Assembly: GCA_003427395.1 (NCBI GenBank)
Contig: BFEA01000009.1
Location: forward strand, 2,741,792-2,804,500
Reading direction: 5' to 3'
DNA from: Chara braunii
Taxonomy: Eukaryota; Plantae; Charophyceae
Length of the DNA stretch: 62,709 bases
A program made the translations under genes and the position numbers. Of the stretch, positions 22,181 to 62,709 are shown piece by piece (within the stretch, counting starts at the first letter, position 1; the number at the start of each line of letters is the position of its first letter). Under the pieces are notes generated by a model. The model had not been told where the DNA came from. It saw only the letters and a list, made by a program, of their open reading frames with translations, and made no database searches.

Positions 22181-22186
<6 letters not shown>

Positions 22187-22803
22187 TGCCAGGCCGAACA
22201 TACGGAGGCCCCTAAGCTGACCCCCGAACGTTCGGGTGTTAGGGTCCCCGTACGGGGCCCGAACTCGAAGGGGTTCGGACCCCGCAAAAAATGATTTTGG
22301 TAGCTAAAAATTATTTTTTTTTCTGAGTTTTGTTTTTTGAGTTCTCTGTTATGTAAGCTAATTGTCTCTTAATTTTGAATTCATTATGTGGAGCCAAACA
22401 ATAATAAAAAATCGGCAAAGATGGTGGTGTCAAAACTTGCTTTTCCACTTACTAATTTGTTTTTTTTTTCTTTTCACTTTTTGGTTTCCTTTTATTTCGG
22501 GGTCTGAAAACAATTATTATTTTTTCAAACTTTATTTGTAGGTTCTCTATTATGTAAGATACATATGTATAAAATTTCATGGCATTTGACAAATCCAAAA
22601 AAAAATAAAAAATCGCCAAAGATGGCGGTGTCAAAAACATGCTCGCCCACGCAATAATTTCATTCTCGTTTTATTTTTTCCTATTTTCATTAATATTATT
22701 TATNNNNNNNNNNNNNNNNNNNNNNNNNNNNNNNNNNNNNNNNNNNNNNNNNNNNNNNNNNNNNNNNNNNNNNNNNNNNNNNNNNNNNNNNNNNNNNNNN
22801 NNN

Positions 22804-22834
<31 letters not shown>

Positions 22835-22936
22835 GTTATGCGTTCGGCTGAACGTCCGAACGCATCGAGAGGGGGTCCCAAACGTTCGGGCGTTCGGGTT
22901 CGGGTGTTCGGCCCGTCCCAAACGCTGACAACCCTG
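22181..22936. mobile_element. hAT-like MITE inserted in a (TA)n tract of the 5' LTR
   Basis: Ends cagaattgccag / gctgacaaccctg (reverse complement cagggttgtcagc), flanked by tatatata. Absent from the 3' LTR at ~49086-49160. Confidence 0.75.
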
Positions 22937-23482
22937 TATATATATATATCGTCACAAAGTGATATATATATATATATATATAATATAATATTATATATAT
23001 ATATATATGTATACCTCGTCAAACGGAGCCGCTCTGCACTATGCTGCAGGGGGCGAATGGTGGTCCTTGGGCACACGTGGCATTTGTGTGGGGATCGAGG
23101 TTCCGAGGGATACGAGAGACATACCTGATGATGGAGGCGACCGGCCTTGGCCGAGAACCGCTCATACATCTGGGAGCTGTTGACGTCTTTTACGACATTA
23201 TAGATAGGCTAGATAGGATTAGTCATTCGTAGTTTGGGTGCTAAGCGCCAGATAGGATGTCGACATTGGTTTTTTTGTTGATGATGATGGGATCCTCAGA
23301 CATTGTTACTTACGAGTTTTTGCAGTGCTCTTATTTGATGAAACTCGTGTTGCAAATCTGCTTCTAATTCGAGGTCGCGACTTTCTGGTGTCATGTGCGA
23401 AATGTTGTTTGATTTCTAAAAATCGCTATGGCTCATTATTATTATCATTATTATTATTATTATTATTATTATTGATATTGTA

Positions 23483-23566
<84 letters not shown>

Positions 23567-25274
23567 TTTGTTAGTTGCCCTTATCTAAATGAGGTCGCAA
23601 CAGAATGAAGTCAACTGAGGAAAAACATAGAGAGGAGAGAGAGAAAATGGCGGGATTGGAGGCAGAGACTACATGGTACAGAGAGAGAGAGAGAAAGAAA
23701 GAGAAGAGGGGGGGGCGCATGATGATCGTAGAAGGCACGTAACATCTGTGAATAAGGGACCGAGGTTGAGAATGATACGAGGGACTTTTTTGTGCTTGAG
23801 GCGAACGGCGTTGGCCAATATCTGCTCAGACTTCGGGAGACTGTTGACGTCATCGACAACATTGTAGATAGGTACGGTGCGCCATTAATGGTCCAGGCAT
23901 TGAGCGCCAGATAGGAGCTCGACATAAGCTCATTGTTGATGATGATGAGATTCGTTCAGCGCTGTCAGTGTGAGCTTTTTTTGTGCTCTTATTTGTGGAA
24001 GTGGTGTTGTTATTCTGCTTCTGGTCACGGCTATTTGGTCTCATGTGTATGATGATGTCTTCTGAAGCTCACCATCGTTCATTTTCCTTGCATTTTATTT
24101 GATTTGATTAATTTTTTTATTAGTTGACTCGTATTATTATTACTATTTATTATTATTGTTGTTGATATTCTATTATTATTATTATTATTATCATTATTAT
24201 TATTACTGTATTCGCAATAAGACTCGTTTTTTTCTTACTTCACATGCATGGTACACCACACTGGCGACATACCCCCAACTCAAAACTCAGAGATGTGGAA
24301 CCAAGAACGTTGTTCGATTACAAGCTCGCTGCAGATAGACTATGGCGCTGTAGCACCCAACAAGTCTTTGCTCATAGCTATGACCAACTCCATTGCTCAT
24401 ATACCCTCAACTCTGGATCGTCCTGGATATCCCACAGGCGACACACTGTACAACTAACACGGACGAACACGCACAGATAGAACAAACAGAAACAGACGAA
24501 CCCGACTAACATACAGAAAGAAGACCGTCAGATAAACAGATCAATGTTGTGTTGGTGTGACCTAATGGCTTGAACGTTGCCTCATGACTCCATCGTATTT
24601 CTTTTATTTGGATAGGATCTCGGTGCATTTGTGCTTTTTGCTTCTACACGACTATTTGGACATTTGTGTGATTTCGCAACTTGGTTTTCTGTATAACGTT
24701 CGCACTCATATTCTCTGCGGTTGCGAAAAAGGAATATTATTAGTATTCTTATTCTTATTCTTATTCTTATTAAAATTAATTTTATCTTACCTGCATCCGC
24801 TGCTCACCATGCGGGAAAGGTAGAGGACGAGTTGAGCTGCAACCGGGAAAGACATGCTATTAGAGAGATAAAGAGACAGAGATTGGGCTCGCTCCACAAA
24901 AGTCTGTCAAGCATTTTCACGCCGGTAGTGGACCATACACAGATTGTTCCAGTAAATCAAATGTATCACATTCCTGACGTCGGATACATTTGAAATGTCG
25001 TGAACTGGAGCAAAACTTGTATGTGTGTCCGTGTGTGTATGTGTGAGTTAAAGAGGGGAGAAAGGGACATACAAATAGGCAGACCGTAACAGACATACAA
25101 AGACACAGATTTAGAAACACATGGTCACAGTGACACGGACACTGTGACACACACACACAAGTGAAACATTGAAATACATACATACATAGCAAAATACACT
25201 CATACACAGCAACACACACGGACACTGTGACACTCGTACAGACATAGTGAAAACTGAAAAACACATATAGTCCA

Positions 25275-25335
<61 letters not shown>

Positions 25336-27126
25336 AAAAAAAAAAAAAAAAAAAAAAAAAAAACACAGTGCATAATGACACACGGTGCGCAAGGGGACAC
25401 AGACAATGATGCAGACAAGTGACACACACAATAACGCGGACAGTGACACAGATGCACTATGTCACAAAGACAAACACAGTCAGTCACACAACGCGATACT
25501 CGAGCAAAATGGACGGACAAGCATAAGGATGTAAGGGTACGTACCTGGTATTAGCAGACGAATGCATAGGTCGACGTCTTCATATACTTGAGGAGGTTGT
25601 CGATACCAACAAAGGCTCCGTCACTTCATAGGATGGTAATAGCTGCATAGATGATGGCACCCTGAACACATACAGCGTGAGGTTGGCATAGCAAGAATGA
25701 GCCAAGGATACTATGAGCGCAGTATTGATACCACTTCCGCACACAGGCATGGGCTGGCGTGAGCCGCCACGGTATAGCGGGGCACTAGATGGCGGGGTCA
25801 GCGAGCTGCCAGTGGTTGTGGCGAAGCATGCAGAACAACGAGCGTGCATGTTAGGATGGGTGTGTACATACGTATATGGGACATCCAGGGTGGATCCTAG
25901 TTGGAAGAAAAGGTATTGAGCGAGTACTGGTGCAAACAAGTTGTTGGTGATACGGTGATCGGGGGGGAGGAGAGAGATCCTGTTGAGTACTGTGGGCCTT
26001 AATCATGTTCGAAGAGAGGCTAAATCAGACTGTGTTCCTTATCAGACTCATGAGCCCCGAGTGGTGTGGATACTTTTTGCCCAAATTAAATGTCATTATT
26101 ATATCATTTTCAATTACTAAATAGTGTTATTATTGTTGCTATTATTATTATCATTAATACGTTACTTTATTATTTTATTTATGACATTATTACTATTACT
26201 ATTACTATTACTATTATTCCCGACAGCTATAGGGAAATGTCATAAATGAAAAGGGGTACAGGGTATTGGAAAAGGGGAGAGTCACTGTAATCAGCGATAG
26301 GATCTACCTCCTCATTCCTTCTCTCTTCAACCAGCAACAGAACCAAATACTTCTAGACAAAAATGGTTAAAAGAATGTTAGTATCAAGTGACTATGAGGG
26401 AAAGGTCTTCATTTGAGGGACTTCAGATACTCTTTCATCCAGCTTAGACTTATCCAAAAGACAGGGCGATTGCGGGAGCTCTGCCGGAGTTCAGGCGGAA
26501 CTATGGATGCAGGGAACAATGAGGTACGCACACTTCTGCCTAACTCATAAACCTTTAATCTATAACCTCCGGGGAATGATCTTTGCATATAATAATAGAG
26601 AGAGCGTTTTGAGTCAGCAAATCTTCAGAACTGAACTCAAGACAAGGAAAAGAAAGAAATGCCTTTATAAAGAAAGAAGAACCATGGAGAGACTGTTCGT
26701 ATGGAAAAAATTTGATTGGAGTCTGACTAACTGTTGCTGGAAGATATAGCGAGAACCTCGCTATGTTAATGTTTCTTTGGGGATATGGCCACAAGGGGAT
26801 CGACTCCGTACAGTCTTCCCTTACTTAATAGACCACCTGACAAATGATAAAAGGGGTTCACAGTGGATTGAAGATTGTTTGTGTTGTGTTCGGATACTGT
26901 GATGATGGATTGCATCAATTTATTCTTGTTCCACAATGACTTAACTTAACCCTACATTCTCTCAAAAATATAAAACTAACACAGTCTGAGGATCAGGTGG
27001 AAGGTCTTTAAGCTATGGGGTACAGGTCCCGTATGGCCTACCCGCATAATCTTAAAGTCTTCCGAATGACGCAAGGCTCAAGAGATATCAAAAGAGACGA
27101 TCAATATCGTTAGAAAACTTCTATAA

Positions 27127-28248
27127 GCGATAGGAGGAGCGAGGCTCTGAGAAGCCTGCCCTATCACAATAATGACGCGGACGGTGATAAGAGAAGCAAG
27201 GCTCCGAGAAGCCTGCCTTACCATCAACCAGCCGTGCGTTAGTATGAGTAAGAGATAGGAGGAGCGAGGCTCCGGGAAGCCTGCCCTATCGCAAGGATAA
27301 CATGGGGGTGATAAGAAAAGGGAGACTCCGAGAAGTCTGCCTTATCACTAACGAGCCATGCATTCAAACAGGTGATAGGCTGTGAAACTGCGAGTTCATT
27401 GAACGCGGGTTTTCCGTTCAGAAGCTCCAGGGTAGCCCAGCAGGAGGGGCCGACGTCACAGGCGGTGATCGTGGACTCCCAGAGAGAAAAAAAAAAAAAA
27501 AAAAAATGATCAAAAAATTCGGAAAAAAAAATTGTTATTGAGAAAAAAAAAAAAAAAAAAATTTGCCTGAGCATTACATCTAAATTCGTTACCAAATTGG
27601 AAAAAAAAACTAGAAAACAGAAAATAGAAAAAGTTTAAAAAGAATTGAAATTAGTGAGTGAACACGATTTGACACCACCATCTTTGGCGATTTTTCATTT
27701 TTCTTTACCTTAGCAAAATGACTCCAAAATTGAGAGGCATGTACCTCACATCATACATAACTCATAATAAAAAATCAGGAAAAAAACGTTATTTTTAGGC
27801 ATCGAAATGATTTTTCAAAATAAAATAAAAAAATAAAAAAATAATTGAACGTCGTTCAATTTTGAACGCGAATTTAAATCTGCGTTCAAACGCACATTTG
27901 AACATGAACGCGCGTTCACGGCATTCAAACGGTTACACAGGTGATAGGAGGAGCAAGACCTCTTAAGGTCTGCCCTATCGCTTGGGTAGCACGGGTAAGG
28001 GAAGTGGTGATAAGAGAAAGCAAGACTCTGAGAAGGCTGCCTTATTACCCGCCAACCGTGCTTCGATATCTAACGGAGATAGGAGGAGCGAGGCTGCAAG
28101 GTCTTCCCTATCGCAATAACTAGCACAAGTAACAGAAGTGGTGATAAGAGAAGCAAGGCTCCAAGAAACCTGCCTTATTGCCCGCCGACTGTGATTCAGT
28201 ATCAAGTAGTGATAGGAGAAGCAAGGCCCATGAGGTCTTCCCTATCAC
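27127..28248 (+). repeat. Stem-loop array (9 units of ~60 bp) in the 5' LTR, split by a MITE
   Basis: Alternating gatagg...cctatc and gtgataag...cttatcac units around aggagcgaggctccgagaagcctgc. Confidence 0.85.
27380..27940. mobile_element. MITE with 8-bp TSD (hAT-like) in the 5' LTR
   Basis: TSD gtgatagg at 27372-27379 and 27941-27948. TIR ctgtgaaactg / cggttacacag (9/11). Empty site in the 3' LTR at ~53493. Confidence 0.88.
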
Positions 28249-29758
28249 AAACAGACACCCAGTAAAGGATGGGTAGATCTCGAGCAGTCTACCATACCAT
28301 TATTAACCTCCTCAATAAAATTGGATCAATCTGATTACTGACAGATTACTTCTGATTCTATTGAGGTGAGGATAGTGAGTTATTAGCCTGATAGACTCGT
28401 CCCTTCATCTCGACACTCTAATTCGATTCCTATCATATGACTCCTTTTAAAGATGGTTTGGCAATGTTGCATGTGCTTGCCAAAGAAGAAATCAAGAAAG
28501 AAACTTTGATAAACAGTCCTCAAAAGAAACTTATGTAGGACCATTGGGTCGGATAAACTGGGAATGAATTATTGTTCATGCCTGAACTGCAAGGCAACAA
28601 CCTGACAATTAGATAAGGATGGAAGCCAGAGAGTGGGTCACCAACTAGCGTTGATCTCTAGGTCACAAATCTAGAAGGAGTCTTCTAGATCCTAGTATAG
28701 GAAAATGGGATGTTAAGTTCTTTGGGACTGTGTTGTGCCTACATGTTTCCATCACTCTTGGGGAAACTACGGAAGAACCCGTAAGGGACTGCAATTCTTG
28801 TTCCCGTTGGATAACAGATCGGTAGGATTCCGACTCAACTTCCACATGGCTTGATACCCACATCTAAGACAAAATCGAAAAAAAGACAGAGAGATTTTCC
28901 CGTAGCTAAGCCTGAATTGTCCTAGTCACTCTCAAAGGTCTTTGAAAAGGTGAGGGTTGGGTAAAAGAGTTAGGAGTAGGAAGGAATGTTGTTCCAAGGT
29001 TTTGTGGAGTGAGGGACTTGCTATGAATGGGTTAAAGGTTGACGCTTGTAGTGCATTCTGTGTTTGCATTTGTACTCGTGTATTTGTGGTTTCTTTGCAT
29101 TTGCTCAAGTTTTGGGCCGTGATTGTCTCCTGAACTTGAGTGGTGATCTGAGATATTTGGATAGGGTGCACCACAATTGTGAAAGTGAGGTCTGCCACTC
29201 ATTCGCTCTCCTAACATACATATATAGGATTCTGTTGAAATTTTTTGGAAAAGGTAAAATTACAGAAGAAGCTAGACATTGACATTGATTATATAGTCAA
29301 CAAGGAACAAAGACTCTTTGTCATAAGTAGCTAAGCGTAGAAGACTATCCAAAAAGGGTTAACCTGATTAGGTAGTCGGTCCGAGGAAGTTAACTCCTCG
29401 GTACACAAATACGGGTCAGTCTTAAGGCGTTCTACCGCGCGTATGCCTATGCTACAGCGATCGAGAAAACGCCTTTGGTTGGCCTACCTCTGCAATTGCA
29501 TGTAAAAGCCTTCGCACATGGGTCAGTTGCTCAACAGGGATACGCCCACCTAAAGGATGGTGATAACTCCCGCAAGTGGAGGTAAGTTGTACCTCGCGGG
29601 ATCTATGACTTGTCGTAGGATCCGCGAGAGGTATAGCACGCTCGCACGGTCGGAGTGGTATTTAGCTAAGGTGACTTAAGACTCCTGCGTGATACGACCG
29701 TGAGGCCCGACACAAGAATTGTTTTACGTCTGGGTGTGGGACCGCCGTGCACGACAGG

Positions 29759-29778
29759 TGGCGCCGTTGCCGGGGATC
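29759..29778 (+). promoter_or_regulatory. Primer-binding site complementary to the tRNA-Asp(GUC) 3' end
   Basis: TGGCGCCGTTGCCGGGGATC, 2 nt after the LTR-terminal CA. Complement of plant cytosolic tRNA-Asp ...GAUCCCCGGCAACGGCGCCA; same PBS as Athila elements. Confidence 0.93.
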
Positions 29779-46058: not shown

Positions 46059-46395
46059 ATGAAACGTGAGGTGACAATGTCAATCCTGAACCACACTTTA
46101 TTCCATGGATTCGGATTTGACGAATTGCTTGTCGGAAAACATCTTTGTTGCATATAGCTCTCCAGCGACAGGAACGTCGCTTAATAGGGTCCGGGAACAC
46201 TGCCGGACCAAATACCCTTACAAAGGTATTTGGCCATGTTTTTTAGGTCGACACGCCTATTGCACCGACCGCCATGACGAAGTCAGTCTGAATGTAGATG
46301 TGTATGTGTCTTTCGCACCGCACTTTCCTCGACCATTGAGGACGGAGCAAATCGGTTAGAAAATTTTGTTAACTATGCGCGCACGTTGTTATGAG

Positions 46396-47112
46396 CAGGG
46401 TTGTCGAGCTCCGGCCGGGGTCCGGGGGTCCGGGGCTGGGCACCCCCAACCCCGGCTCAGGAACCCCCCCCCCAAAATAAATAAATAAATAAATAAATAA
46501 AATAAAATAAAAAATAGTGTGGGGTGCGCAGCGAGAACGCGCACCACGTGAGCTAAACCACAAAAATGGGGTTTTTTGCCCCACCCCGGACCCCCCCCGG
46601 GGCCACACCCACCACTNNNNNNNNNNNNNNNNNNNNNNNNNNNNNNNNNNNNNNNNNNNNNNNNNNNNNNNNNNNNNNNNNNNNNNNNNNNNNNNNNNNN
46701 NNNNNNNNNNNNNNNNNNNNNNNNNNNNNNNNNNNNNNNNNNNNNNNNNNNNNNNNNNNNNNNNNNNNNNNNNNNNNNNNNNNNNNNNNNNNNNNNNNNN
46801 NNNNNNNNNNNNNNNNNNNNNNNNNNNNNNNNNNNNNNNNNNNNNNNNNNNNNNNNNNNNNNNNNNNNNNNNNNNNNNNNNNNNNNNNNNNNNNNNNNNN
46901 NNNNNNNNNNNNNNNNNNNNNNNNNNNNNNNNNNNNNNNNNNNNNNNNNNNNNNNNNNNNNNNNNNNNNNNNNNNNNNNNNNNNNNNNNNNNNNNNNNNN
47001 NNNNNNNNNNNNNNNNNNNNNNNNNNNNNNNNNNNNNNNNNNNNNNNNNNNNNNNNNNNNNNGAAACCCCTACCCCGGCTTGGGCCCCGGGGATCCCCGC
47101 TTGACAACCTTG
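46396..47112. mobile_element. hAT-like MITE with 8-bp TSD in the 3' LTR
   Basis: TSD gttatgag at 46388-46395 and 47113-47120. TIR cagggttgtcgagc / gcttgacaaccttg (12/14). Empty site at ~20150 in the 5' LTR. Confidence 0.9.
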
Positions 47113-48572
47113 GTTATGAGAGGCGCTGTGATAATTAGGCTCGGTAGTAATATTCGTAGACCGAAAAGGGTTGAGGTGTCGATTGGGTTAGTATTATATT
47201 GAGAAAACTTACGGCGCAGAGACTTTAGATAAGCTAAACTAGAATACACCCCGACCATATAGTCGGAGCAATAAAAGGAAGTAATTGTCGAATTTTGCAG
47301 TATCACCCTGAAAATGTTTGTGGCATGTCATGTGAACTTGTATTCCGCAAACAGAGGATGAGGCTCCCGCTCGGCCTCCTGTAAGTAGAGAGGGAATTGC
47401 CCCTTGGATGGTGACTTCCTGACCACGTGGCCACCTGAGCGACCGGTGTCTTCGTACCTTTACAGAGGGAGACACCGTTGCAAGCTTTGATATTATCCGC
47501 ACAGGGCCTAGACTCATACTACTTGAGCTGGTGCCCGCCTACCGAACGATACTGGGCCTCTGAAAATGCCTGCCTTTATATTCTTCTGCTCGGCCTCAAA
47601 TTCCCGACGCGTCTCCTTGATGTGGTATCGGCCTACCCGCTGCTTAAGTGTTTTCAACAACCCTTATGTGTCACGGGCCTCTTTCCCCGCCTCTTGAGTA
47701 TTTTCCCCACCGCGATACTCAATGTCTCGGCCACCAGTAAGTACCGACCCTTCTGGCCCTACGATGAGTCAAGTACTTTTGCGGGTCACACACGTGCTCA
47801 AGCCAACAAACATACTCGCACACGGACTCAGAAAACGGGCTCAACTGAGCCCCAATACACTATTTGTATCTGAACTGTTCCACTTCTACTCGAAGTAGGA
47901 GCTAGCTCAGTAGGTTTGGGTGCAAATTATTGAATGACAGACGCAGGGATCGAATTTGCCCGACCCTTGAGCTAGCTTCTTTTTGACAAGGAGCTCAAGA
48001 GTATTTTTCCCTGACCTTGGGTGGCAAGGACTTGAACCCGCAACCTGAGCATTAGGATTAGTTATAGTTAGCTGGTTAATTGAGATTTGGGCGCCCGCAT
48101 AACGGGGACCTGACACTTGGCCGATATAGGTAGTTTGTTGGATTTTTATTATTTTATTTTATTTTGTTCTTTTATGTTAACCGTAGTTTCACAAGATTCA
48201 CGTTCATGAATCTGCCTCCGAACTCCGAGCAGATTCAGACTAGTAAAGTAGCAACGAACTGATTGCTTGGGAGTACGACGCGACATCGCAAAGGCTGAGG
48301 AGTACGGCGAGGCATCGTGAAGAGTTAGAAGCAGGGCACGGCATCGCAAAGGCTGAGGAGTATGACGCGGCATCGTGAAGAATCAGGAGCAGGGTGCGAC
48401 ATCACAAAGGCTGAGGAGTATGGCGTGGCATCGCGAGGACTTGGGAAGCACGACACAGGGAAAAGAGAGGGCAGTGTGGAGAAAAAGAGGAAAAGCTAGA
48501 GGGAGCAAAAAGGGATATCGCAAGCAATTTAGAACGCAGGTGGTCGCACGAGAGGTAGGAGGCACGTGGGGA

Positions 48573-48603
<31 letters not shown>

Positions 48604-49085
48604 GAGGAGAAGAAGAGGAAGAAGAAGAAGGAAAAGAAGAAGGCAGAGAAAGAACGGGAAAGGTGGAGACAACTTATCTATTGCCCACCCTCTGATTCAA
48701 CACTCTCATCCTATAGAGGATAGATGCGGGTGTGTTGAAGTGCTGTCTTCGTATCCGCACTCACAAAAGGGGTCTTTCTATCAGTATCGGGAGGTGTCGA
48801 GACTCGTAAGAATATGCTGTGCTCGTTTTTCGATCGAGTAGCATCGTGGAGCAACTCACCGGCCAACAAGTAAGTCTCCGATCTGCAAATGAACTCTAGC
48901 TACTTGCGTTGGTAGAATGCACAGTAAACGAATGAATATATGACTAGAATATGAAAAAGGTACATTGCTATACTCTTGGGATTGAACAAAATCGAATGAA
49001 TCTAACGTTAGGATGAGGAAGTATAAATAACTATGCAAGCGTGCGGATATTTGTGGGTAAGTGGAACGTACCATGTATGTTAGGA

Positions 49086-49117
<32 letters not shown>

Positions 49118-50292
49118 GTTGTCAAATGTATATCCATATGCATATATATATATATATGTATACCTCGTTAAAATGAGCCGCTATGCACTATGCTGCAGGG
49201 GGCGAATGGTGGTCCTTGGGCACACGTGGCATTTGTGTGGGGATCGAGGTTGCGAGGGATACGAGAGACATACCTTATGATGGAGGTGATCAGCTTTAGC
49301 CCCGATCATACATCTGGGAGTTGTTGACGTCACTTACGACATTATAGATATGCTAGATAGGATTAGTCATTCGTAGTCTGGGCGCTAAGCGTCAGATAGG
49401 ATGTCGACATTGGTTCTTTGTTGATGATGATGAAACTCCTCAGACATTGTCACTTACGAGTTTTTGTTGTGCTCTTATTTGATGAAACTCATGTTGCAAA
49501 TCTGCTTCTAGTTTGAGGTTGCGACTATCTGCTGTCATGTGCGAAATGCTGTTTGATTTTTATAAATCGTTGTTGCTCATTATTATTGTCATGATTATTA
49601 TTATTATTATTATTATTATTATAATAATAATAATAATTATTATTATTATTATTATTGATATTGTAGCTATTATTATTATTATTTTTATTGTTGTTGTTTG
49701 TTGCCCTTATCTAAATGAGGTCGCAACAGAATGAAGTCAACTGAGGAAAAACATAGAGAGGAGAGAGAGAAAATGGCGGGATTGGAGGCAGAGACTACCT
49801 GGTACGGAGAGAGAGAGAGAAAGAAAAAGAAGAGGGGGGGGCGCATGATGATCGTAGAAGGCACGTAACGTCTGTGAATAAGGGACTGAGGTTGAGAATG
49901 ATACGAGAGACTTATTTGGTGCTTGAGGCGAGCAATGTTGGTCGATATCTGCTCGGACTTCGGGACACTGTTGACGTCACCGGCAACATTGTAGATAGGT
50001 AGGGTCCGCCATTAGTGGTTCAGGCGCTGAGCGCCAGATAGGAGCTCAACATAAGCGCATTGTTGATGATGATGAGATTCGTTCAGTGCTGTCACTGTGA
50101 CCTTTTGTTGTGCTACTATTTGGTAGAACTGGTGTTGCTATTCTGCTTCTGGTCACGACTATCTGGTCTCATGTGTATGATGCTGTTTTCTGAAGCTCGC
50201 CATCGCTCACTTTCCTTGCATTTTATTTGCTTTGATTTATTCTTTTATTAGTTGACTGATATTATTATTATTATTTATTATTACTGTTGTTG

Positions 50293-50353
<61 letters not shown>

Positions 50354-50878
50354 TGTATTCGCAATAGGACTCACTTCTTTCTTACTTCACATGCATGGTA
50401 CACCACACTGGCGACAACCGCCCAACTCAAAACTAAGAGAAGTGGAACCAAAAACGATGTTCGATTACAAACTCGCTGCAGATAGAGTATGGCGCTATAG
50501 CACCCAACAAGTCGTTGCTCATAGCTATGACCAACTCCACTGCTCATACCCTCAACTCTGGATCTTCCTGGATATCCCACACATGACACACTGTACAACC
50601 GACACATATGAATACGCACAAATAAAACAAACAGAAACAGACGAACCAGATTGACATACAGGAAGAAGACGGTCAGATAAACAGATCAACGCTGTGTTGG
50701 TGTGACCTGATGGCTTGAACGTTGGCTCATGACTTCATCGTATTACTCTTATTTGGATAGGATCTCGGTGCATTTGTGCTTTCTACTTGTACACGACTAC
50801 TTGGACATCTATGTGATTTCGCATTTGGTTTTCTGTATAACGTTCACACTCATATTCTCTGCGCTCGCGAGAAGGGAA

Positions 50879-50947
<69 letters not shown>

Positions 50948-53248
50948 AATGAATTTGATCTTACCTTCATCTGCCGCTCACCATGCGCGAAAGGTAGAGG
51001 ACGAGTTGAGCTGCATCCGGGGAGGACATGCTATTAGAGAGATGAAGAGACAGAGATTGGACTAGCTCCACAAAGTCTGTCAGGTGTTTTCATGCCGGTA
51101 ATGGATGTTCCAGTAAATTAAATGTATCCCATTCCCAGCGTCGGATACATTTGAAATATCGTGAAGTGGAGCAAGGCCTGTATGTGTGTGCGTGTGTGTG
51201 TGTGTTCGTTAAAGAGGGGAGAAAGGGACATACAAACAGGTAGATCGTAACAAACAGATAAAGACACAGATTCAGAAACACACGGTCACAGTGACACAGA
51301 TACTGTGACATACATACACAAGTGAAACAGTGAAATACACACATATATAACAAAATACACTCATACACAGCGACAAACACGGACACTGTGACACTCGCAC
51401 AAGCACAGTGAAAACAGAGAAACACGCATAGTCCAAAAAAAAAAAAAAAAAAAAAAAGAGTGCACAATGACACACAGTGCACAAGAGTACACAAACAATG
51501 ATGCGCACAAGTAACACACACTAACAAGGAAAGTCACACATATGCACTATGTCACAAACACAAACACAGTCAGTCACACATTCAATCAGACACACAACTG
51601 GATACTCAAGCAAAACGGACGGACAAGCATGAGGATGTAAGGGTACGTACCTGGTATTAGCAGAGACAAACATAGGTCGACACCTTTATATACTTGAGGC
51701 GGTTGTCGACACCAACAAAGGCTCCGTCACTTCATAGGATAGTAATAGTTGCATAGATTATGGTACCCTACACATACAGCGTGAGGCTGGCATAGTAAGA
51801 ATGGGCCAAGAACACTATGAGCGCAGTATTGACGCCAGGTCCGCACGCAGGCACGGGCTGGCGTGAGCCGCCACGGGATAGCGGGGCACTAGCGGGCGTG
51901 GTCAGCGAGCCGCCAGTGGTTGTGGTGAGGCATGCAGAACAGCGAGCGTGCATGCTAGGATAGGTGTGTACATGCGTATATGGGACATCCAGGGTGGATC
52001 CTAGTTGGAAAAAAAAGTATTGAGTACTGGTGCAATTAAGTTGCTGGTGACACGGTGATCGAGGGGGAAGAGAGAGATCCTATTGAGTAATGTGGGCCCG
52101 AACCATGTTCAGAGAGAGGCTAAATCAGACTGTGTTGCTGATCAGATCCATGAGCCCCGAGTGGTATGCATATTTTTTGCCCAAATTAAATGTCATTATT
52201 CTATCATTTTCCATTACTAAATAGTGTTATTATTGCTGCTATTATTATTATCATTAATACGCTATTTTATGATTTTATTTATGACATTATTACTACTACT
52301 ATTACTATTATTCCTGACAGCTATATGGAAAGGTCATAAATGTAAAGGGGTACAGGGTATTGGAAAAGGAGAGAGTCACTGTAATCAGCGATAGGATCTA
52401 CCTCCTCAGTCCTTCTCTCTTCACCCCGCAACAAAACCTCTCACACACCAAATACTTCTATACAAAATGGTTAAAAAAATGTTAGTACAAAGTGGCTCTG
52501 AAGGAAAGGTCTTAATTTGAGGGACTTAAGATCCTCTTTCATCCAGCTTAGATATATCCAAAAGACAAGGCGATTGCAGGAGCTCTGCTGGAGTTCAGGC
52601 GGAACTCTGGAGGCAGGGAACAACGAGGTACACTCACTTCTCGGCCTAAACCATAAACCTTTAATCTATAACCTCCGGGTAATGGTCTTTGCATGTAATA
52701 ATAGAGAGAGCGTTTTGAGTCAGCAATTCTTCAGAACTGAACTCAAGACAAGGAAAAGAAAGAAATGCCTGTATAAAGAAAGAAGAACCATGGAGAGACT
52801 GTTTGTATGGAAGAGATTTTATTAGAGTCTGACCGACTGTCGCTGGAAGACATAAGGAGAACGAGAAGTTCTGAGTATTTGTCTTGCTATGTGAATGTTT
52901 CTTTAGGGATGTGGCCACAAGGGAATCCACTTCGTGGAGTCTTCCCTTACTTAATAGACCACCTGGCAAATAATAAAAGGGGTTCACAGTTGACTGAAGA
53001 TTGTGTATGATGTGTTCGGATATTGTGATGATGAATTGCATCAACTTATTCTTGTTCCACAATGACTTAACCCTACATTCTCTCAAAAATATAAAACTAA
53101 CACAATCTGAGGATCAGGCCGAAGGTCTTTAAGCCATGAGGTACAAGTCCCGTATGGACTACCCGCATAATCTTAAAGTCTTCCGAATGACCCAAGGCTA
53201 AAAAAGCGTCAAAAGAGACGACCAATGTCGTCAGAAAACTTGTATAAA

Positions 53249-53782
53249 CGATAGGAGGAGCGAGACTCCGAGAAGCCTGCCCTATCGCAATAATGGCACG
53301 GAGGGTGATAAGAGAAGCGAGGCTCCGAGAAACCTGCCTTACCACCAACCAGCCGTGCGTTAGTACGAGTAAGCGATAGGAGGAGCGAGACTCCGAGAAA
53401 CCTGCCGTATCGCAAGGATAGCATGGGGGTGATAAGAGAAGCGAGACTCCGAGAAGTCTGCCTTAACACCAACGAGCCATGCATTCAAACAAGTGATAGG
53501 AGCAAGGCCTCTTAAGGCATGCCCCATCGCTTGTGTAGCACGGGTAAGGGAAGTGGTGATAAGAGAAAGGAAGGCTCCGAGAAGCATGCCTTATTACCTG
53601 CCAACCGGGCTTCGATATCTAACGACGATAGGAGGAGCGAGGCCGCAAGGTCTTCCCTATCGCAATCACTAGCACAAGTAAGGGAAGTGGTGATATGAGA
53701 AGCCTGCCTTATTGCCCGCCAGCTGTGCTTCAATATCAAGTAGTGATAGGAGAAGCAAGGCCCACGAGGTCTACCCTATCAC
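53249..53782 (+). repeat. Stem-loop array (9 units) in the 3' LTR
   Basis: Uninterrupted counterpart of 27127-28248. Confidence 0.85.
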
Positions 53783-54758
53783 AAACAGACACCCATTAAA
53801 GGATGGGTAGATCTCGAGCAGTCTACCATACCATTATTAACCTCCTCAATAAAACTGGATCAATCAGATTACTGACCGATAACTTCAGATTCTATTGAGG
53901 TGAGGATAGTGAGTTCTTGACCTAATAGACTCAACCCTTCATCTCGGAACTCTGATTCGATTTCTATCATATGACTCCTTTTAAAGATGGTTTGACGATG
54001 TTGCTTGTGCTTGCCAAATAAGAAATCAAGAAGGAAACTTTGGTAAGCAGTCATGAAAAGAAACTTATGTAGGATCATTGAGTCGGATAAACTGGGAATG
54101 AATTATTGTTCATCGTCTGAACTGCAAGGCAACAGCCTGACAATTAGATAAGGATGAAAGTTAGACAGTGGGTCACCGATAAGCGTTGATCTCTAGGTCA
54201 CAAATCGAGAAGGAGTGTTCTTAATCCTAGTATAGGAAAAGGGGATGTTAAGTTTTTTTTTACTGTGTTGTGCCTACAGGTTTCCATCACTCTTGGGGAA
54301 ACTACGGAAGAACCCGTAAGGGACTACAATTCTGTCATCGTAGGATAACAGGTCGGTAGGATTCCGACTCAACTTCCATATGGCTTGATACCCACATCTA
54401 AGACAAAACCGGAAAAGGGACGGACAAATCTTCCCCTGTATCTAAGCCTAAATTGTCCTAGTCACTCTCGAAGGTCTTTCAAAATGTGAAGGGTTGGGTA
54501 AGAGAGTCAAAAGTAGGAAGGAGTGTTGTTCCAATGTTTTGGGGAGTGAGGGACTTGTTATGAATGGGTTAAAGGTTGACGCTAGTAGTTCGTTCCCTGT
54601 CTGTATTTGTACGCGTGTATGTGACTTCTTTGCTTTTGCACAGGTTTTGGGTCGTGATTGTCTCCTGAACTTGAGTGGTGATCTGAGACATTTGGACAGG
54701 GTGCACCGCAATTGTAAGAGTGAGGTCTACCACTCATTCGCTCTAAGATACATATATA

Positions 54759-54808
<50 letters not shown>

Positions 54809-55381
54809 CAAGACTATATTTTGGGCCAAGCTTATGCAGGTTATTATCTAGGATTCTGTTGAGATTTTTGGGAAATGGTAAAATTACAGAAGCAGCTAGA
54901 CATTGACATTGCTTATATAGTCAACAAGGAACGTAGACTCGTTGTCATAAGTAGCTAAGCGTGGAGGACTGTCCGAAAAGGGTTGACCTGATTAGGTAGT
55001 CGGTCCGAGGAAGTTAGCTCCTCGGTACACAAATACGGGTTAGTCTTAAGGCATTCTACCGCACGTATGCCTATGCTACTGCGATCGGAAAAACGCCCTC
55101 GGCTGACCTACCTCTACAATTGCATGTAAAAGCCTTCGCACGTGGGTCAGTAGCTCAGCAGGGATACGCCCATCTAAAGGATGGTGACAGCTCCCACAGG
55201 TGGAGGTAAGTTGTACCTCGAGGGATCTCTGACGTGTCGTAGGGATCCACGAGAGGTATAGCACGCACGCACGGTCGGAGTGGTGTTTAGCTAAGGTGAC
55301 TTAAGACTCCTGCGTGATACGACCGTGAGGCCCGACACAAGAATTGCTTTACGTCTGGGTGTGGGACCGCCACGCGCGACA

Positions 55382-56164: not shown

Positions 56165-58480
56165 TGTCGGCGCGAATACCCTTACAAGGGTATCCGCCCT
56201 GGTTTTTGCAAGTGGCAAAAAATAATTTTGGTTTAAAAATTAAATATACCACGTGAGTCGCGACAGGGTTCGTTGTCTATGCGGCTGATGGTTGACTAGA
56301 ATAAAGAGTGTATGGGCGCGCGGATTTGAGGCGCGAGTGATCCATTTAACTATTGATGATTGAAGAGTCGGCGTGATCGCCGGCCAAAAATTTTCTTCTG
56401 ATTAAACAGGGATTAAAAAGATTACGTTTCGTTGATTAATGTGTTTACCTATGACTTGTGCGTGCGTGCGGAGGACGGCATCAACAACAAAGTGACTTTT
56501 GAGGCGCCTCCGGTAGGCCCGTGCGTCGCGCGGTGTCCGTTTATTTAGCCTTCCGTAAGAGCTAGACCCAGCCTTGGGCCTAGCGCTATTGGTTACAGTA
56601 TCGGACTTCCATCAAGGAGATTCAGGGATTGAGGTCGAGCGACGACGATGTGGGAATATCAGAGCAGCGCGAAGGGACCAAAGGGTTGAGGTCCCGACGG
56701 GGCTATCCCCTTTGGTTTTGCCGTCGGTGGCGTTGGAACGGGGCTAGTGGGTTGTTTTTTTTCCTCGATCCGTCATATTCTGACGATTTAAAATATTGTA
56801 AATGTTTTATTTTTTTATTATCATATTATTTTATATTCCGGCGTCCCTTTGACTTGGGCGCGATGACGGATTTAGTGGTCGTCACGACAATTGAGGATCT
56901 TGAGTACGCGCCTCTTTTGGCGGGTCCGATCAGATTCTGCGTGACCGGGATGTTGGCAAAATTGTCGTTTCTCTTTCTATTTCGACTGCGTTGAAACGCG
57001 GACTGAGGAGTTCAACATGTATGCAAAGCCGGTGGGCGATAAGCCCACGTAGCGGGTGAAATGTGAGCCGCGGGGATAGCCGCAAGAGCGTTGTCCGCCA
57101 ACCATGGTCTTTCGTGAGAAGTTTGGGTGTGAGTGTGTGCGCCAGGGCCTACAAGGCGCCGAATTATGCCTGGGGGCAACGAGAGGGGAACCTGGGTGGG
57201 GGCCGCAGTGTGGCCTACTTACATGGGACCCTCCTTTGCGGTGGTCTTCGAGATTCCCATATGAACGTCTGCTATTATCACTGAGACCTGCATCGGGCCA
57301 GGGCCACTTAGGCCTCGCCTCGGCCCCATAGCAAGCCGTGCCCTCAGCTGCGTGTCAAGGATGTCCCCTCGGGTGGACGCAGTCGAGCCGGAATTAGTAA
57401 GAGGTTGTGGCAGGGTCGACAGTAGTATATGCTGGACACACAGGCAACCGACCAGGGCATAGGGGCGGAAGACTAACCGGGCCGTCGGGGAGTCGACCGC
57501 TTATTGAAGTATCGTCCGTGACGACCTTACCAGACTGCGTTGAGCACTGGGGGACTATTGCGGGCGGAGAGCTGCGTTAGTCGCTGAGGCAGAGTAGGGC
57601 GGACTGAGGGCAGGACGACGAGCGCTAGCACAGTGGGGTGACGAATACAGTGACGAACACAAGCAGTGGTGGAGGGTGAAGGCAGCAGGTCAGTGAGAAT
57701 AGGACGAACCTGACCCGGAATCGCGCCGGGTGCAGTGGAAGAAAACAGTGAGGAAGGGACGGGCGGCAGGCCGGTGAGGCGCAAACGGGGACGAAGGAGA
57801 AGGCAGTAGGGGGTGAGGATTTTAGAATGAGAGGGGGAAGGCGAAACAGCGCAGCTACGGGCGCTAAAGGCAGGAATGAGGGGCAGCGGGGGAACAGGTA
57901 AACAAGGAGAATGAATCTGGACGCAAAGTCACGCCGGATGCATGCGGGATACGAGGAGTGGCTATGGCGGAGAGAGGGAAGCATAACTCGCTTGTTCCTT
58001 AGTGGAATCAGGCCAGGTAAAGGCCGATTTTGGGGTTACGATGTCACACGAATCGCATAGGAGAGTCAGTTTAGCCATTAGATTAGTAGGAAGGGAGCTA
58101 GAGAGAAAGGAGGTGAGCTGAGAAGTCGAAGGAGGTGTAGGCAGGGTGAAGGAGGCGTAGCTCGCTCGTTTCTCGACAAAAACGAGCGAGGAAAGTTGTG
58201 AAGTAAAGGTTTTATGGCCGGGTGAATCAGATGGCAGTGTTAGTTTGAACAGAAAGTTAGTAGGTTAGGAGGTTAGTAGAAAAAGAGCCGCGCAGGAGTG
58301 TCAGGGAGATGAGCTATGGCAGGTATGGCAGAAAGGAAACGCTATCTCCTCCGTCCCTCCACGGAATGGGGCGAGGGAGGATGCTAGACTGACGTTTCTA
58401 ATGGTTAGGAGTTGATTTATGAGGTTAGTTTAGCTATAGGATTAGTAGATAAGGGGTCAGTAGGGAATTGAGCTGCACGT
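56165..58480 (+). mobile_element. Partial LTR-like sequence of a related family
   Basis: Starts TGTCGGCGCGAATACCCTTACAA. The first ~700 bp are a diverged direct repeat of 58481-59230 (shared cttgggcctagc, ggttgagg.cccgacggggctatccc). Confidence 0.55.
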
Positions 58481-60894
58481 TGTCGGCGCGAATACCCTTA
58501 CAAAGGTATTCGCCTTGTTTTTTGCAAGTGACCGGGAGGCTTGGTTAACTTGGAATTTTGAGTGCCCGCGCGGAAAAAATGGGGATCGTCCGCACGCAGG
58601 CTAAGGATTGCCTGAGTAGGAAGGGTGAGTGGGCGTACAGTTTTAAGGCGCACATGTGATTTCTTGTTTAAAATGAATTGTGAAGCCGGTATAACTATCT
58701 GGCTTGATTTTTGTTTACCACGTTTCGGTTGGCGGAAGGCTCGACATGTGGAAAGGTGTGAACGGTGGCCGCGACGCGACATGTACAAAATGGTGTGGGT
58801 ACTCGGCGGCCGCGCGCACGGTTGAAAAGGAGGGAGAGGCTTGGGTTGTTCTTCCCAGGCCTGGGCGATGCGCGGTACCACGTCATATTGAAACCTGTGC
58901 TCGACTGTCTCTGGCTTGGGCCTAGCCCTACAGGTTACAACATTGGACTATTACCATCGAGGTATGGGGGTCGAGGCCAGCGGACGACATCATGGGAGCA
59001 ATGGAGCGGCGTGGAGGAAACCGAGAGGTTGAGGGCCCGACGGGGCTATCCCTCTTCTGGTCTTATTGGCGGGCGAGGTGATGTCCGACCTGCAGGGCTG
59101 GCGAGGTGCCGGCAACTCCCTCTTTCCCCCGCTAATGTTTGTGTATTTTTCTTGATATATCTTTTTTTTTTTTTTTTTTTTTTACGTCCCTTTTTTCCTT
59201 TCCGCGTCCCGTGCTGGGGCGCGATACGTGGTTGTAGCCAGGACCCATAGGCGTAGCGTAGTTGGTACACCCATGAACTGTCGGAATACAGATCGCGCTC
59301 GATGCCGGATGGGTGGGACCCGGTACTCTGAGTTGCCTGGTCCTGCTCAGGCTTCGGTCAGGCAGAGGGTGCCACCTCGAGGCAGTTGCGAGGCCGGTCC
59401 TTCGGTAAATTTGTTAGGGGTTGGGGCGGCGCGGAGGAGACCCGCCTGGCCACTGTGCGGGATGACATGAGAAGGTCCGGAGATGAACCCGGACAACGAC
59501 GGGGCCAGGTGCTTGCGGAGGGAAAGACGAGAGACAGTAGGAGCTGCGCTCTTACTACGAGGGAGCCAAAGAACTTGTATTTAGACGTGCTCTGGCAAGA
59601 GATTCGTCCCGGGCATAGACAAAGAGCCACTATCAGCGTGTCGAAGAAATCAGCCCTTTCTTGCTCCGCTGTGCTGATGGCGGCGAGCGACAACAGGTCT
59701 CTTCGTACCGCAGCAGAAGACTTAGTCTGAGTTTGCCCCTTCTGGTGGTCGGCTGGAACAGCGAAGGGGTTGGAAACAAGCTACGGGGACTGAAGACCTG
59801 CCTGTTTGGTCGAGGCTGGCTGCGGTGCACAGTTGCTGCTGATTCTGTCGACCCAGGGCAAACTGCTGCTGCTGCTGCAGACTGGGCGTGGGCTGCTGCA
59901 GTTGCTAATGGCCGACTCTGTATGATGCCGCTAGTGCCTGTTGTTGATTACTGCATGCTGCGGCGCGCAGCCGCGAGCTGCTGGCCGCCGCTGTGAGTTG
60001 TGGCTATGTTCGGAAGCTGGGCAGGAAACGGTCGTCGTTGTGTTTGACTGAGCACAATCGTTGCTGCTGCTGACAGGGCACAGTTTACAACTATCTGCTG
60101 CGAGAAGACTGCGGCTGCTGATTGATAGTGTGTGAACTACGTTTGCGTGCGGACTGCTATTGTACGCTACTGCGTATTAATGCTTGTCGGTGTCGACTGT
60201 TACGGGTTGCTATGTAACCGCGATTGGGCTAAGGAGGGGTGTTGAGACTCGTGGAGGAGATCAGGCAGGATAAGTAGGGGGTTAGTGCTGCGATTTGTGA
60301 GGTTCGCGAAGGGTGGACCTGGACAGTTGACGTCAGAAGTTGACAAGGCTGCGGTGTTGTTTGGCCATCATTGTGGGGCCCTCAGGCGTTGAAGGTGCCA
60401 AGGCCCTCTCATGCGAGTCTGAGCGCACCATTCTTTGATCTGAGAGTCTCAAACTTTCTCTTTCTGTCCTTCTTCCTCTAAGTCTGCTCCTTTGGTTCTG
60501 AGAGGAAGGTGGCAGACGGGGCTGCGACCCGTAGTCCGTGCCAAGGCCTCTGTGGGAGGTTCGCCCCACCGATTGCGGGAGCTCTGCCGGGATTCGGGCG
60601 GAGTCCTGGAGGTAGGGAACTGAGTGGTAATTCCCAGACTCCTTCTATAACCCCAGTTATAACCCCTATCTGTATACCCCTCTACGGGTTGGCTGAGTGT
60701 GTTGTGTGAATCCTGTATCTGATTTTGGTTTGGCCTTCAGGACATAAATCAGAGTAAAGTAAAGGAACGTGTGTGCAACCTTAGTTTCAGCCTTACTGAT
60801 TGCCTGAAAGAAGATTGTGGACAAAAAGGGGTTGCATTTAGGGGGAAGGTTGGGAGGAAGGCAGTATTGCGTGCAGTTTTGATTGGGTCGTTAA

Positions 60895-61830
60895 GGCTGG
60901 GAGGTCCCCATAAGTTTCGGGAAGCCCAACGCTTTGTTTATTTTCGTTTTGCGTGGAGCAATTAGGCCGCTCTATAAGTTTAGGTAGCTTGAGTGCTCTT
61001 GAGGCTAGGGAGTCCCCATAAGTTTGGGAAGACCCGGTGCTGTGAATTGCGTGGAGGGTCAGGACGCTTTATAAGTTTAGGTGACCTAACTGCTCTGACT
61101 TGTGAGGGTTTGATTGTGGATGATTTTCAGGGACCCAGGGCGCTTTATAAGTTTAGGTACCTTGGGTTGCCTTGTTTTACTTGGAGGTTCTTTCAGTTTC
61201 TTTGATTCTGAACGAGAAGGTCTGAACCGCTCTATAAGTTTAGGTGGTTCAACTCTTCTCCTGTTTGTTCTGAGGGGGTAATTTTGTCAGGGGGCAGGCC
61301 ACTCTATAAATTTAGGTGCCCTGGCCTACTACCTCACACAGACTGGATCTGAGAGGAACGAACCTGGCAGAGGATCAGACCGCTCTATAAGTTTAGGTAG
61401 TGTGACCCAACGCCTCGCACATGATTGAACCCAATGGTTATGATTTGGTTATATTGTATTATTATATTATTAAGAATAGGCTAGTCAGACCGCTCTATAA
61501 GATTAGGTAGTCTGAGTATAACTTATCACAATTGAAGAGAGTATAATTAAGAGATATAACTGAAGGTAAACTTGGGCAGGCTGAGCAGTGTTCTAAGTTG
61601 AGCGGCTCAGCCCTATGTCTACTTTAAAGGTTAAGTTCAGAGAGATATATACAATTTGGCTATTTAAACAGTTCAGGGCGACTAGAGTGGTCTAGTCATA
61701 TGCCCAAAGAAGAGAGAAGTAGTTGTGTCCTGTGTTTTATATGTATTTGGCTAAGTCAGATGCGCTCTATAAGTTTAGGTGATCTGACTTTAGGCCTGGC
61801 TAAGTTGGGCGCTCTGTAAGTTCAGGTGGC
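60895..61830 (+). repeat. Array of 12 stem-loops with a TAAGTT apical loop and unique spacers
   Basis: Core cgctctataagtttaggt or compensatory variants. Loops at 60911, 60975, 61019, 61072, 61148, 61235, 61307, 61388, 61498, 61594, 61770, 61817. Confidence 0.9.
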
Positions 61831-62094
61831 CTGACCTATGCCTTCTGTAAGTTGGGTATAAAGGGGGTAACTCACAGAGAGAGCATGAACTATTGTTTGC
61901 TAAAGACTTGGGGGTTGGTGAGAGTACTTACCTTTGTGGTTTGGCCTGCCTGTGGCTGAGTGAGGCTACTACTTGGGCTGGGTTTCAGGTTGATAGGTAG
62001 TTGCTTTAGAGGTTCGCCACGTGCTAGAGCGACAGGAGTTAGTTCAATTCTTGCATTTTCTGAGCTGACTTTATTTTACTTAGATTGATTCCTG

Positions 62095-62510
62095 CATTTT
62101 CTGGGATCCTTTGTTATACTTGGCTTGTATAAATTTTGGTAAGCTACTTTCTCTACGGGAAGCGCTGCCAAAATTTCTGCAGATCCAGGGAGTTAGCCAA
62201 ATTTTGACTTTTCCAAGTCCAACGTGTCTAAAGTTCATATATGGCTTAGTAAAAATCTGGAAAGTCTCATTTTCTAAAGGGAGTGCTGTCCAAATTTTTG
62301 CTAATTCAGGGAGTTAAACAAAATTTGGACTTTGAAAAGTTAAAGGTTACTTCTGTTTTGTTATTTAGGTTGATATAAATTATGGAAAGACATTTTTCCT
62401 ACGGGAAGCGCTGCCGAAATTTTCTCAATTTAGAGGAGATAGATTATATTTTGACAGGTGATGATTTTGACAATCCAATCTGTATAGGGGAGACTCTGCC
62501 AAGATTTACC
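62095..62510 (+). repeat. Degenerate ~122-bp tandem repeat (3-4 units) with internal hairpins
   Basis: ctacgggaagcgctgccaaaattt variants at ~62153, ~62274, ~62399 and partially ~62487. Confidence 0.75.
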
Positions 62511-62709
62511 TTTGCTTTGGGCACTGTGTAAGGGTAGACTTAGGCTTAGTTAGTTCGGAAGGGTTTTGGAGTAAGGTTGTGATTATCCTCTAAGGATTTA
62601 TATGTTTAGCTTGGGGTTTCGCCTGTCATGTGTTATAGACCCTCTTGATCGGTTGATTCAGGATCTGGATTAGACTGAGTTCGATCCTACGAGGATCACC
62701 TTCTGTTAT

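What the first reader, a model, noticed from the sequence alone, without database searches (positions are those of the whole stretch)
58481..62709. Shared modular architecture linking otherwise unalignable long LTR families (candidate undescribed system)
Seen: the giant LTR and the LTR starting at 58481 show no extended similarity by eye, yet keep the same ordered modules. These are a TGTC start; the AATACC-CTTACAA-AGGTATT hairpin plus oligo-T; kilobases of divergent DNA; cgattgcgggagctctgccgg (21/21 identical at 26467-26487 and 60570-60590, variant at 52571), which can fold as tctgcc/ggcgga; a ctataacc box ~75-95 bp later; and then a stem-loop array 300-700 bp downstream. Inference: a clade of Gypsy elements whose multi-kb LTRs act as platforms with a conserved promoter or RNA core and exchangeable structured-RNA arrays.
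Basis: partly seen in the sequence, partly recalled or inferred. Interest (0 to 1): 0.82.

Follow-up and report, generated by a model that had tools for sequence, protein, structure and literature searches.

The report
Shared RNA core in giant LTRs
Several jumping-gene families, likely from the alga Chara, have very long end-repeats whose sequence has drifted apart except for one 60-base piece predicted to fold as RNA and ending in a likely splice signal, followed by rows of predicted family-specific hairpins, a layout that would mark each family's full-length RNA for packaging.

Summary
The window holds a decayed Chara-type Ty3/gypsy element with ~9-kb LTRs, and two further LTR starts at 56165 and 58481. 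The giant LTR and the 58481 LTR align only at the start hairpin and a ~60-nt core. Three more copies (L001, L003, L010) and RNA reads of a fourth family share the core.

Corrections:
- The giant LTR starts TGCC, not TGTC.
- The ctataacc box is not invariant.

Arrays follow in 5 of 5 copies long enough, of two unrelated covarying types. Relatives of the core are transcribed, likely in sense. No spliced read was seen, but the test was weak.

Best reading: diverged sister families keep an RNA leader hub (palindrome, hairpin, donor, then hairpin arrays) inside the LTR, in the order of retroviral dimerisation, splice-donor and packaging signals. Conserved islands in divergent LTRs are known (Sireviruses). 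The scan already reported the same-loop array on other DNA of this genome (e1-10641911).

The parts
20106..29756 (+). Family A 5' LTR (first ~140 nt lost at an inserted element), ending CGACA
   Evidence: 86-92% identity to 46344-55381 in five blocks; K2P 0.098 over 5822 sites
26467..26525 (+). Shared core, copy A5, ending in G|GT donor consensus (GT at 26524-26525)
27126..28250 (+). Family A bulged-hairpin array in the 5' LTR, split by a MITE at 27380-27939
29759..29777 (+). Primer binding site for tRNA-Asp, two bases after the LTR end
   Evidence: identical to the PBS printed for FIDEL in PMC2844528
37882..42235 (+). Decayed gag-pol remains: DUF4100-like stretch, RT, RNase H, integrase in Ty3/gypsy order
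   Evidence: Pfam; 120 of 120 listed RT relatives are Chara braunii proteins
46188..46209 (+). 7-bp inverted repeat straddling the 3' LTR junction; no polypurine tract upstream
   Evidence: longest purine run in the 100 nt upstream is 6 nt
46201..55381 (+). Family A 3' LTR, 9181 bp with a hAT-like insertion near 46388-47112; TGCC start, CGACA end
46205..46244 (+). Start hairpin plus T6, family A
52571..52629 (+). Shared core, copy A3, donor GT at 52628-52629
53247..53781 (+). Family A array in the 3' LTR
56165..58480 (+). 5' (U3-like) part of a B-related LTR, cut off before its core by the 58481 element
   Evidence: 92% over 50 bp and 69% over 211 bp to 58481+, patches shared with L001 and L010; 160 DNA contigs run off into unrelated flanks before 56165; no core
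58481..62709 (+). Family B LTR, open at the right window edge
   Evidence: 76% over 1467 bp to L001
58481..58523 (+). TGTC start, hairpin 58488-58513 and T6, family B
   Evidence: z -2.9
60275..60569 (+). Block conserved within family B upstream of the core, with a pyrimidine patch and a possible pairing partner (60531-60536) for the invariant start of the core; likely holds or follows the transcription start (inferred)
   Evidence: reads begin in the 60244-60469 bin
60570..60628 (+). Shared core, family B: invariant palindrome 60579-60584, covarying hairpin 60588-60608, donor GT 60627-60628
60645..60666 (+). Repeated TATAACC-type box; degenerate across families
60891..61836 (+). Family B array, about 11 hairpins with a TAAGTT-type loop
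   Evidence: 7 of 12 pairs change on both sides across 9 units
62116..62507 (+). Third array, 4 units, period 121, 125 and 85 nt; folds as a long hairpin but without compensatory pairs

Best explanation
These are likely sister families of one Ty3/gypsy lineage whose multi-kilobase LTRs have diverged beyond alignment except at modules predicted to act in the element's RNA, and the shared 60-nt core is likely a leader control hub whose splice-donor site would separate a spliced message from a full-length RNA carrying the hairpin arrays as packaging marks. Step by step. (1) Shown: termini, start hairpin and core are shared, the rest is not. (2) Shown by covariation, n small: the core hairpin and two array types are kept paired. 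(3) Shown for relatives, on the usual library convention: the core is transcribed in sense. (4) Inferred: transcription starts roughly 50-300 nt upstream of the core, so core and arrays are R/U5 leader, upstream of the PBS. (5) Inferred: the invariant 6-nt palindrome is a dimer-initiation site. (6) Inferred: the G|GT site binds U1, giving a spliced mRNA without arrays and/or protecting the 2-3 kb leader from premature 3' cleavage.
For: Core hairpin: 3 pairs changed on both sides, 97.6% of cells paired, 0/500 shuffles for covariation score, slid controls 35-55%. Reads of family D carry a further paired change, 26490 T>C with 26500 A>G (38/41 and 38/41 in X5; 56/62 and 49/52 in X7). GGTA is an island of identity between divergent flanks at the same offset in 5 of 5 genomic copies that reach it. 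Arrays covary: A type 4 pairs, B type 7 pairs. Strand-biased runs X5 and X7 show depth 22.3 and 38.2 on the likely sense side against 0.35 and 0.24 over 60470-60695. ATG is the rarest of 64 triplets downstream of the donor in B (15 vs 31.2, z -3.9) and L003 (18 vs 29.1, z -2.7), but not in B's upstream part (26 vs 26.4), as expected of a scanned leader. A GYARTC partner for the invariant GATTGC sits at -39 in all three B copies and in C. 5'-end palindromes drive dimerisation in Ty1 and Ty3 (PMC6844567 abstract; PMC11381356 section 26).
Against: No spliced joint in RNA on either stretch; family A is barely expressed in those runs and family D's downstream exon was not on the stretch. Family D reads continue past the donor position with letters that also begin GT (14 and 30 reads), which fits unspliced RNA as well as a second exon. 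ATG depletion suggests the arrays often stay in translated RNA; it is weak in A3, A5 and L001 (z -1.1, -1.6, -1.0), and A's U3 is also low (z -2.6). Six core copies from three families give few independent events, and the tool warns that related sequences can beat the shuffles. The upstream pairing alone is not significant (14-64 of 200 shuffles as good). No start site was mapped (table 6 empty). Nothing tests Gag binding or dimerisation.
Confidence: 0.5

Rival explanations
1. The core is a 3'-end control module as in foamy virus: U1 bound at the donor silences a nearby poly(A) site (the TATAAC/CATAAAC boxes) in the 5' LTR, and folding hides the donor in the 3' LTR.
For: The donor lies inside the LTR, 15-40 nt before A-rich boxes. 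In foamy virus such suppression needs U1 binding but no splicing (PMC3694450 sections 3 and 8), which would explain the lack of junction reads.
Against: Predicted donor accessibility hardly changes with five 5' ends in four copies; only L003 drops, from 0.19 to 0.07. No poly(A) loose ends among those listed, though most rows were not shown. The box is degenerate. It overlaps step 6 of the best explanation.
Confidence: 0.17
2. The core and box are a DNA-level core promoter (box = TATA), and the arrays are transcription-factor or anti-silencing binding sites, like Sirevirus palindromic repeated motifs.
For: The box resembles the cTATA promoter element kept in diverse Sirevirus LTRs, and Sirevirus LTRs carry family-specific palindrome clusters (PMC2829016 section 4 part 2; PMC4728375 abstract). 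Several array windows fold as well on the minus strand.
Against: Reads cover the core, upstream of the box, and extend at least 40 nt further upstream, though 3'-LTR read-through could give this. Invariant G-U pairs and asymmetric bulges fit RNA, not DNA dyads. L003 lacks the box. In Sireviruses the motifs lie upstream of TATA; here they lie downstream of the box.
Confidence: 0.15
3. True modular exchange: unrelated LTRs acquired the start hairpin, core and arrays by template switching between co-packaged RNAs, as the first reader's 'platform' implies.
For: Identity drops sharply on both sides of the core (82% in the first 50 nt against a 34-60% alignment background). B carries two kinds of array.
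Against: A and C show the intermediate expected from gradual divergence: 94% at the core, 62-69% in three patches and the same array type. Module order is colinear, and termini are shared as well.
Confidence: 0.12
4. The arrays are by-products of slippage and local duplication in long LTRs, and their pairing has no function; only the core and termini are selected.
For: Units sit in tandem repeats of period ~124-133. The third array shows no compensatory pair.
Against: In B the spacers are unrelated while loop and pairing persist, with 7 double-changed pairs. The array is kept in L001 at 76% identity and in diverged family C.
Confidence: 0.06

Closest known systems
Sirevirus (Ty1/copia) LTR architecture: Bousios et al. 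2010, PMC2829016 (abstract, section 4 part 2 read); Bousios et al. 2016, PMC4728375 (abstract read)
   Same: Very divergent members keep short conserved non-coding motifs in fixed order, an inverted repeat around the 3' LTR junction, and clusters of family-specific hairpin-forming repeats.
   Different: Gypsy, not Copia. LTRs of up to ~9 kb. Arrays lie downstream of the conserved core, in the inferred leader, not upstream of TATA. Units are asymmetric bulged hairpins with G-U pairs. No polypurine tract was found, where Sireviruses have several.
Foamy virus R region with major splice donor: Schrom et al. 2013, PMC3694450 (abstract, sections 3 and 8 read)
   Same: Splice-donor consensus inside the LTR, next to RNA structure and upstream of A-rich signals.
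   Different: No canonical AATAAA, no predicted U3-dependent masking, and a multi-kilobase array-bearing region follows.
Retroelement 5' dimerisation and packaging signals: Ty1 PAL1/PAL2 (PMC6844567, abstract), Ty3 PAL6 (PMC11381356, abstract and section 26); HIV-1 dimer-initiation / splice-donor / psi order (recalled)
   Same: Invariant 6-nt palindrome near the inferred 5' end, then a donor, then repeated stem-loops.
   Different: Everything lies upstream of the PBS, inside the LTR, and the putative packaging signal is a 8-11-unit array that differs between families. Function untested.
Athila-type non-chromovirus Ty3/gypsy elements, e.g. FIDEL (PMC2844528, passages; PMC6317226, passages)
   Same: Identical tRNA-Asp PBS, long LTRs, long region between integrase and 3' LTR, no extra RNase H or chromodomain hit.
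   Different: LTRs about six times longer than FIDEL's 1531 bp. No PPT. A DUF4100-like stretch. The only named non-Chara relative among 20 looked up is fungal.
General LTR conservation pattern: Benachenhou et al. 2013, PMC3601003 (passages)
   Same: Conserved termini and short internal islands; residual conservation in long R regions linked to stem-loops; U3 poorly conserved.
   Different: That study could not model plant Metaviridae LTRs, and the word 'splice' does not occur in its text.

Membership tests
Ty3/gypsy LTR retrotransposon (family A element) | Two direct LTRs flanking pol in the order RT, RNase H, integrase | tested here: met
Ty3/gypsy LTR retrotransposon (family A element) | PBS just after the 5' LTR | tested here: met
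   tRNA-Asp PBS at 29759-29777
Ty3/gypsy LTR retrotransposon (family A element) | Polypurine tract before the 3' LTR | tested here: not met
   longest purine run 6 nt in 100 nt; one old copy only
Ty3/gypsy LTR retrotransposon (family A element) | Target-site duplication | tested here: inconclusive
   5' end lost
LTR (58481 stretch) | TG start shared with a proven LTR and behaving as an insertion boundary | tested here: met
   shares the start with 46201 and 56165; contigs diverge before 56165; X6 reads there are preceded by sequence like the internal 3' end before 46201, consensus agreement 0.51
LTR (58481 stretch) | CA end followed by PBS, or a second copy | not testable with these tools
   end lies beyond the window; no genome held
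Athila clade (REXdb non-chromovirus OTA) | tRNA-Asp PBS and no additional RNase H | tested here: met
   no additional RNase H family listed for 8 Chara relatives
Athila clade (REXdb non-chromovirus OTA) | RT-RH-INT groups with Athila | tested here: inconclusive
   no tree built; of 20 relatives looked up, 6 named Chara, 1 named fungal, 13 without organism, none named Athila
Sirevirus | Ty1/copia domain order and multiple PPTs | tested here: not met
Foamy-type donor-gated LTR | Donor inside R upstream of a poly(A) signal | tested here: inconclusive
   donor consensus met; R limits and poly(A) site unmapped
Foamy-type donor-gated LTR | U3-dependent fold masks the donor | tested here: not met
   prediction only
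Known RNA families (Rfam 15, ribozymes included) | Match at gathering score | tested here: not met
   0 in the window; only two chance-level hits in 58400-62709

The most novel reading that the evidence does not exclude
Giant Chara LTRs hold a 'packaging intron'. A universal short exon with dimer palindrome and donor is shared by all families, and the LTR-internal intron behind it carries a family-specific hairpin barcode that co-evolves with Gag. Each of many co-resident families would then package only its own unspliced RNA while translating a long multi-gene region from spliced or AUG-poor leaders, and these elements prime their second strand without a polypurine tract.
Probability: 0.22. 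Interest if true: 0.78.

Novelty: new variant of a known kind. Interest (0 to 1): 0.52.

Why it matters
How LTR retrotransposons outside yeast choose their own RNA for packaging is poorly mapped. A lineage with a fixed core and naturally swapped, covarying hairpin arrays offers a ready test: array type against Gag sequence, and leader swaps. The core is also a practical 60-nt probe for finding and classifying giant LTRs that BLAST cannot link, in a charophyte group not described at this level in the searches I ran (listings only).

Tried and rejected
No whole genome is held, so the genome-wide co-occurrence test could not be run.

Collection scans. The metagenome scan gave 14 loci; 3 are homologous (L001, L003, L010). 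The other 11 match at the pattern only and were dropped; L008 and L009 score 23-27 bits against 62-96. Viral scans gave 0, 0, 0 confirmed and 1 chance match, L015. Prokaryote scans gave 0.

RNA. No RNA holder was listed by the run index. No RNA splice joint was seen. The drop in RNA depth after the donor was not counted as evidence of splicing, because most reads are under 90% alike (188/301 in X5, 284/448 in X7) and come from a family that diverges there. The family D continuation has no match in the window or the three loci.

Motif ideas. One motif shared by core, A array and third array looked striking with a pattern drawn after seeing all three (17 hits on +, 0 on -). It failed a fair test: a profile from A units alone finds L003's array but nothing in B, and background scores equal or beat the B sites. 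Rejected. A long 14-bp stem with bulge: the outer helix is not stable in context. Foamy-like masking was not predicted. Hammerhead or other Rfam family: none. tRNA genes: none. No tRNA-like CCA end is seen just before the 3' LTR.

Literature. No listing described Chara LTR structure (titles and abstract starts only). One search gave 2 off-topic papers and one search gave 0. The Chara genome paper (recalled) was not among the listings, and no supplements were read; they may describe these families.
Full report
Setting. The window is repeat-rich eukaryotic DNA. All 120 listed relatives of its RT fragment are Chara braunii proteins, at up to 85% identity (77% over the full query for the top hit), so the host is likely Chara. 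One giant Ty3/gypsy element (family A) spans about 20106-55381. Its LTRs are 86-92% alike in blocks, K2P 0.098. A tRNA-Asp PBS lies at 29759-29777, identical to that printed for FIDEL (passages). Decayed RT, RNase H and integrase lie on +. Two more LTR starts follow at 56165 and 58481. No whole genome was available.

Observation check. A sensitive comparison links A and the 58481 family (B) only at the first ~40 nt and at a ~60-nt core. The giant LTR starts TGCC at 46201 and its 5' copy lacks the start. A model of the core finds it in the window only in the three LTR copies, not in 56165-58480. That stretch looks like the U3 of a B-related LTR interrupted by the 58481 element. In DNA contigs, 160 records run off into unrelated sequence before 56165 (agreement 0.35), as at an insertion boundary. 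Another 69 reads there are preceded by sequence like the internal end before 46201. This supports the hairpin as an LTR start; the far end of B is unseen.

More copies. One metagenome scan returned 14 loci, of which 3 are homologous. L001 and L010 are family B (76-80%). L003 is a family C that is 94% like A at the core, 62-69% in three patches, and carries an A-type array. RNA reads reveal a fourth, expressed family D with different flanks. Arrays follow the core in 5 of the 5 genomic copies long enough to show them; L010 ends inside the core.

The core. Six copies align without gaps. An 8-bp hairpin with a 5-nt loop has three pairs changed on both sides, and D reads add one more paired change. 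It is still predicted for the 60570 copy in most contexts, and the outer helix I first drew is not stable in context. Upstream of the hairpin are an invariant GATTGC and an invariant palindrome GAGCTC. A possible partner for GATTGC lies at -39 in B and C and at -180/-190 in A, but is not significant on energy alone. Exactly 57 nt from the core start, all five copies that reach it have G|GTA between divergent flanks, a 5' splice-donor consensus (consensus recalled). The box behind it is degenerate.

The arrays. Fourteen A units from two LTR copies form a bulged hairpin with 4 double-changed pairs; these units are related by duplication, so events are fewer than cells. Nine B units keep a TAAGTT-type loop with 7 double-changed pairs. 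A third array at 62116-62507 shows none. A profile of A units does not detect B, so the two types are unrelated at this sensitivity. A shared sub-motif suggested failed that test.

Expression. In two strand-biased poly(A) runs, reads of relatives cover 60244-60695 on the side that is sense in most libraries (22.3 vs 0.35; 38.2 vs 0.24). A third run shows no strand bias. Most reads are under 90% alike, so this copy is not shown to be active. No RNA splice joint, no start or end cluster, and no poly(A) end appeared among the rows shown. D reads pass the donor position into sequence beginning GT, either intron or second exon. ATG is depleted after the donor in B and L003, weakly in A and L001, and not in B's upstream part (lead from e1-10416625).

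Mechanism. The simplest account is vertical divergence with retention of cis-acting RNA modules. Their order (palindrome, hairpin, donor, repeated stem-loops) matches what retroelements use for dimerisation, splicing and packaging (Ty1 and Ty3 papers; HIV order recalled), but moved upstream of the PBS and expanded into arrays. I put this at 0.5. Rivals are U1-gated polyadenylation as in foamy virus (0.17), a DNA promoter with binding-site arrays (0.15), true module exchange (0.12) and neutral arrays (0.06). All functional steps are inferred.

Comparison and novelty. Conserved motifs in divergent LTRs, family-specific hairpin clusters and a junction inverted repeat are described for Sireviruses, and stem-loop-linked residual conservation for LTRs in general. 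Earlier scan notes report hairpin-plus-donor modules in fungal-type LTRs, unchecked. The lineage has Athila's PBS, but its placement is open. What I did not find described (listings only, no supplements, library incomplete) is a multi-kilobase LTR leader with a shared donor-ending core and family-specific covarying arrays in a charophyte, or the missing polypurine tract. Verdict: real, a new variant of a known kind, interest 0.52.

Noticed in passing
window 46160-46209: No polypurine tract before the 3' LTR; a 7-bp inverted repeat straddles the junction, and RNA-run reads of related families show similar upstream sequence. Plus-strand priming is unexplained.
   Followed up: partly
window 17867-18500 and 55382-55944: Inverted ATTG-rich arms flank the giant element, which appears to have inserted into a foldback-type element.
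   Followed up: no
window 31336-38146: A 3.4-kb tandem duplication (94%) of the pre-gag and gag region inside the giant element.
   Followed up: no
window 27380-27939; 46388-47112; about 18690-20105: Small DNA-transposon-like insertions with 8-bp duplications inside both LTRs; a related one sits where the 5' LTR start is missing.
   Followed up: partly
window 59250-59292: Draws RNA reads on both strands whose loose ends look like tRNA/SINE A- and B-box sequence (label recalled); similar tRNA-like bits by eye near 47905 and 48030.
   Followed up: no
window 29947-31411 and 42618-44379: Extra sense ORF remains before gag and after integrase; those scanned (29947, 30893, 42929, 43546) have no Pfam hit.
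   Followed up: no
L003 reverse strand about 490-505: A 12-nt perfect palindrome just upstream of the core that duplicates the core's first bases.
   Followed up: partly
P0212: A distant RT relative carries an endonuclease/exonuclease/phosphatase domain ahead of a Gypsy-type pol.
   Followed up: no
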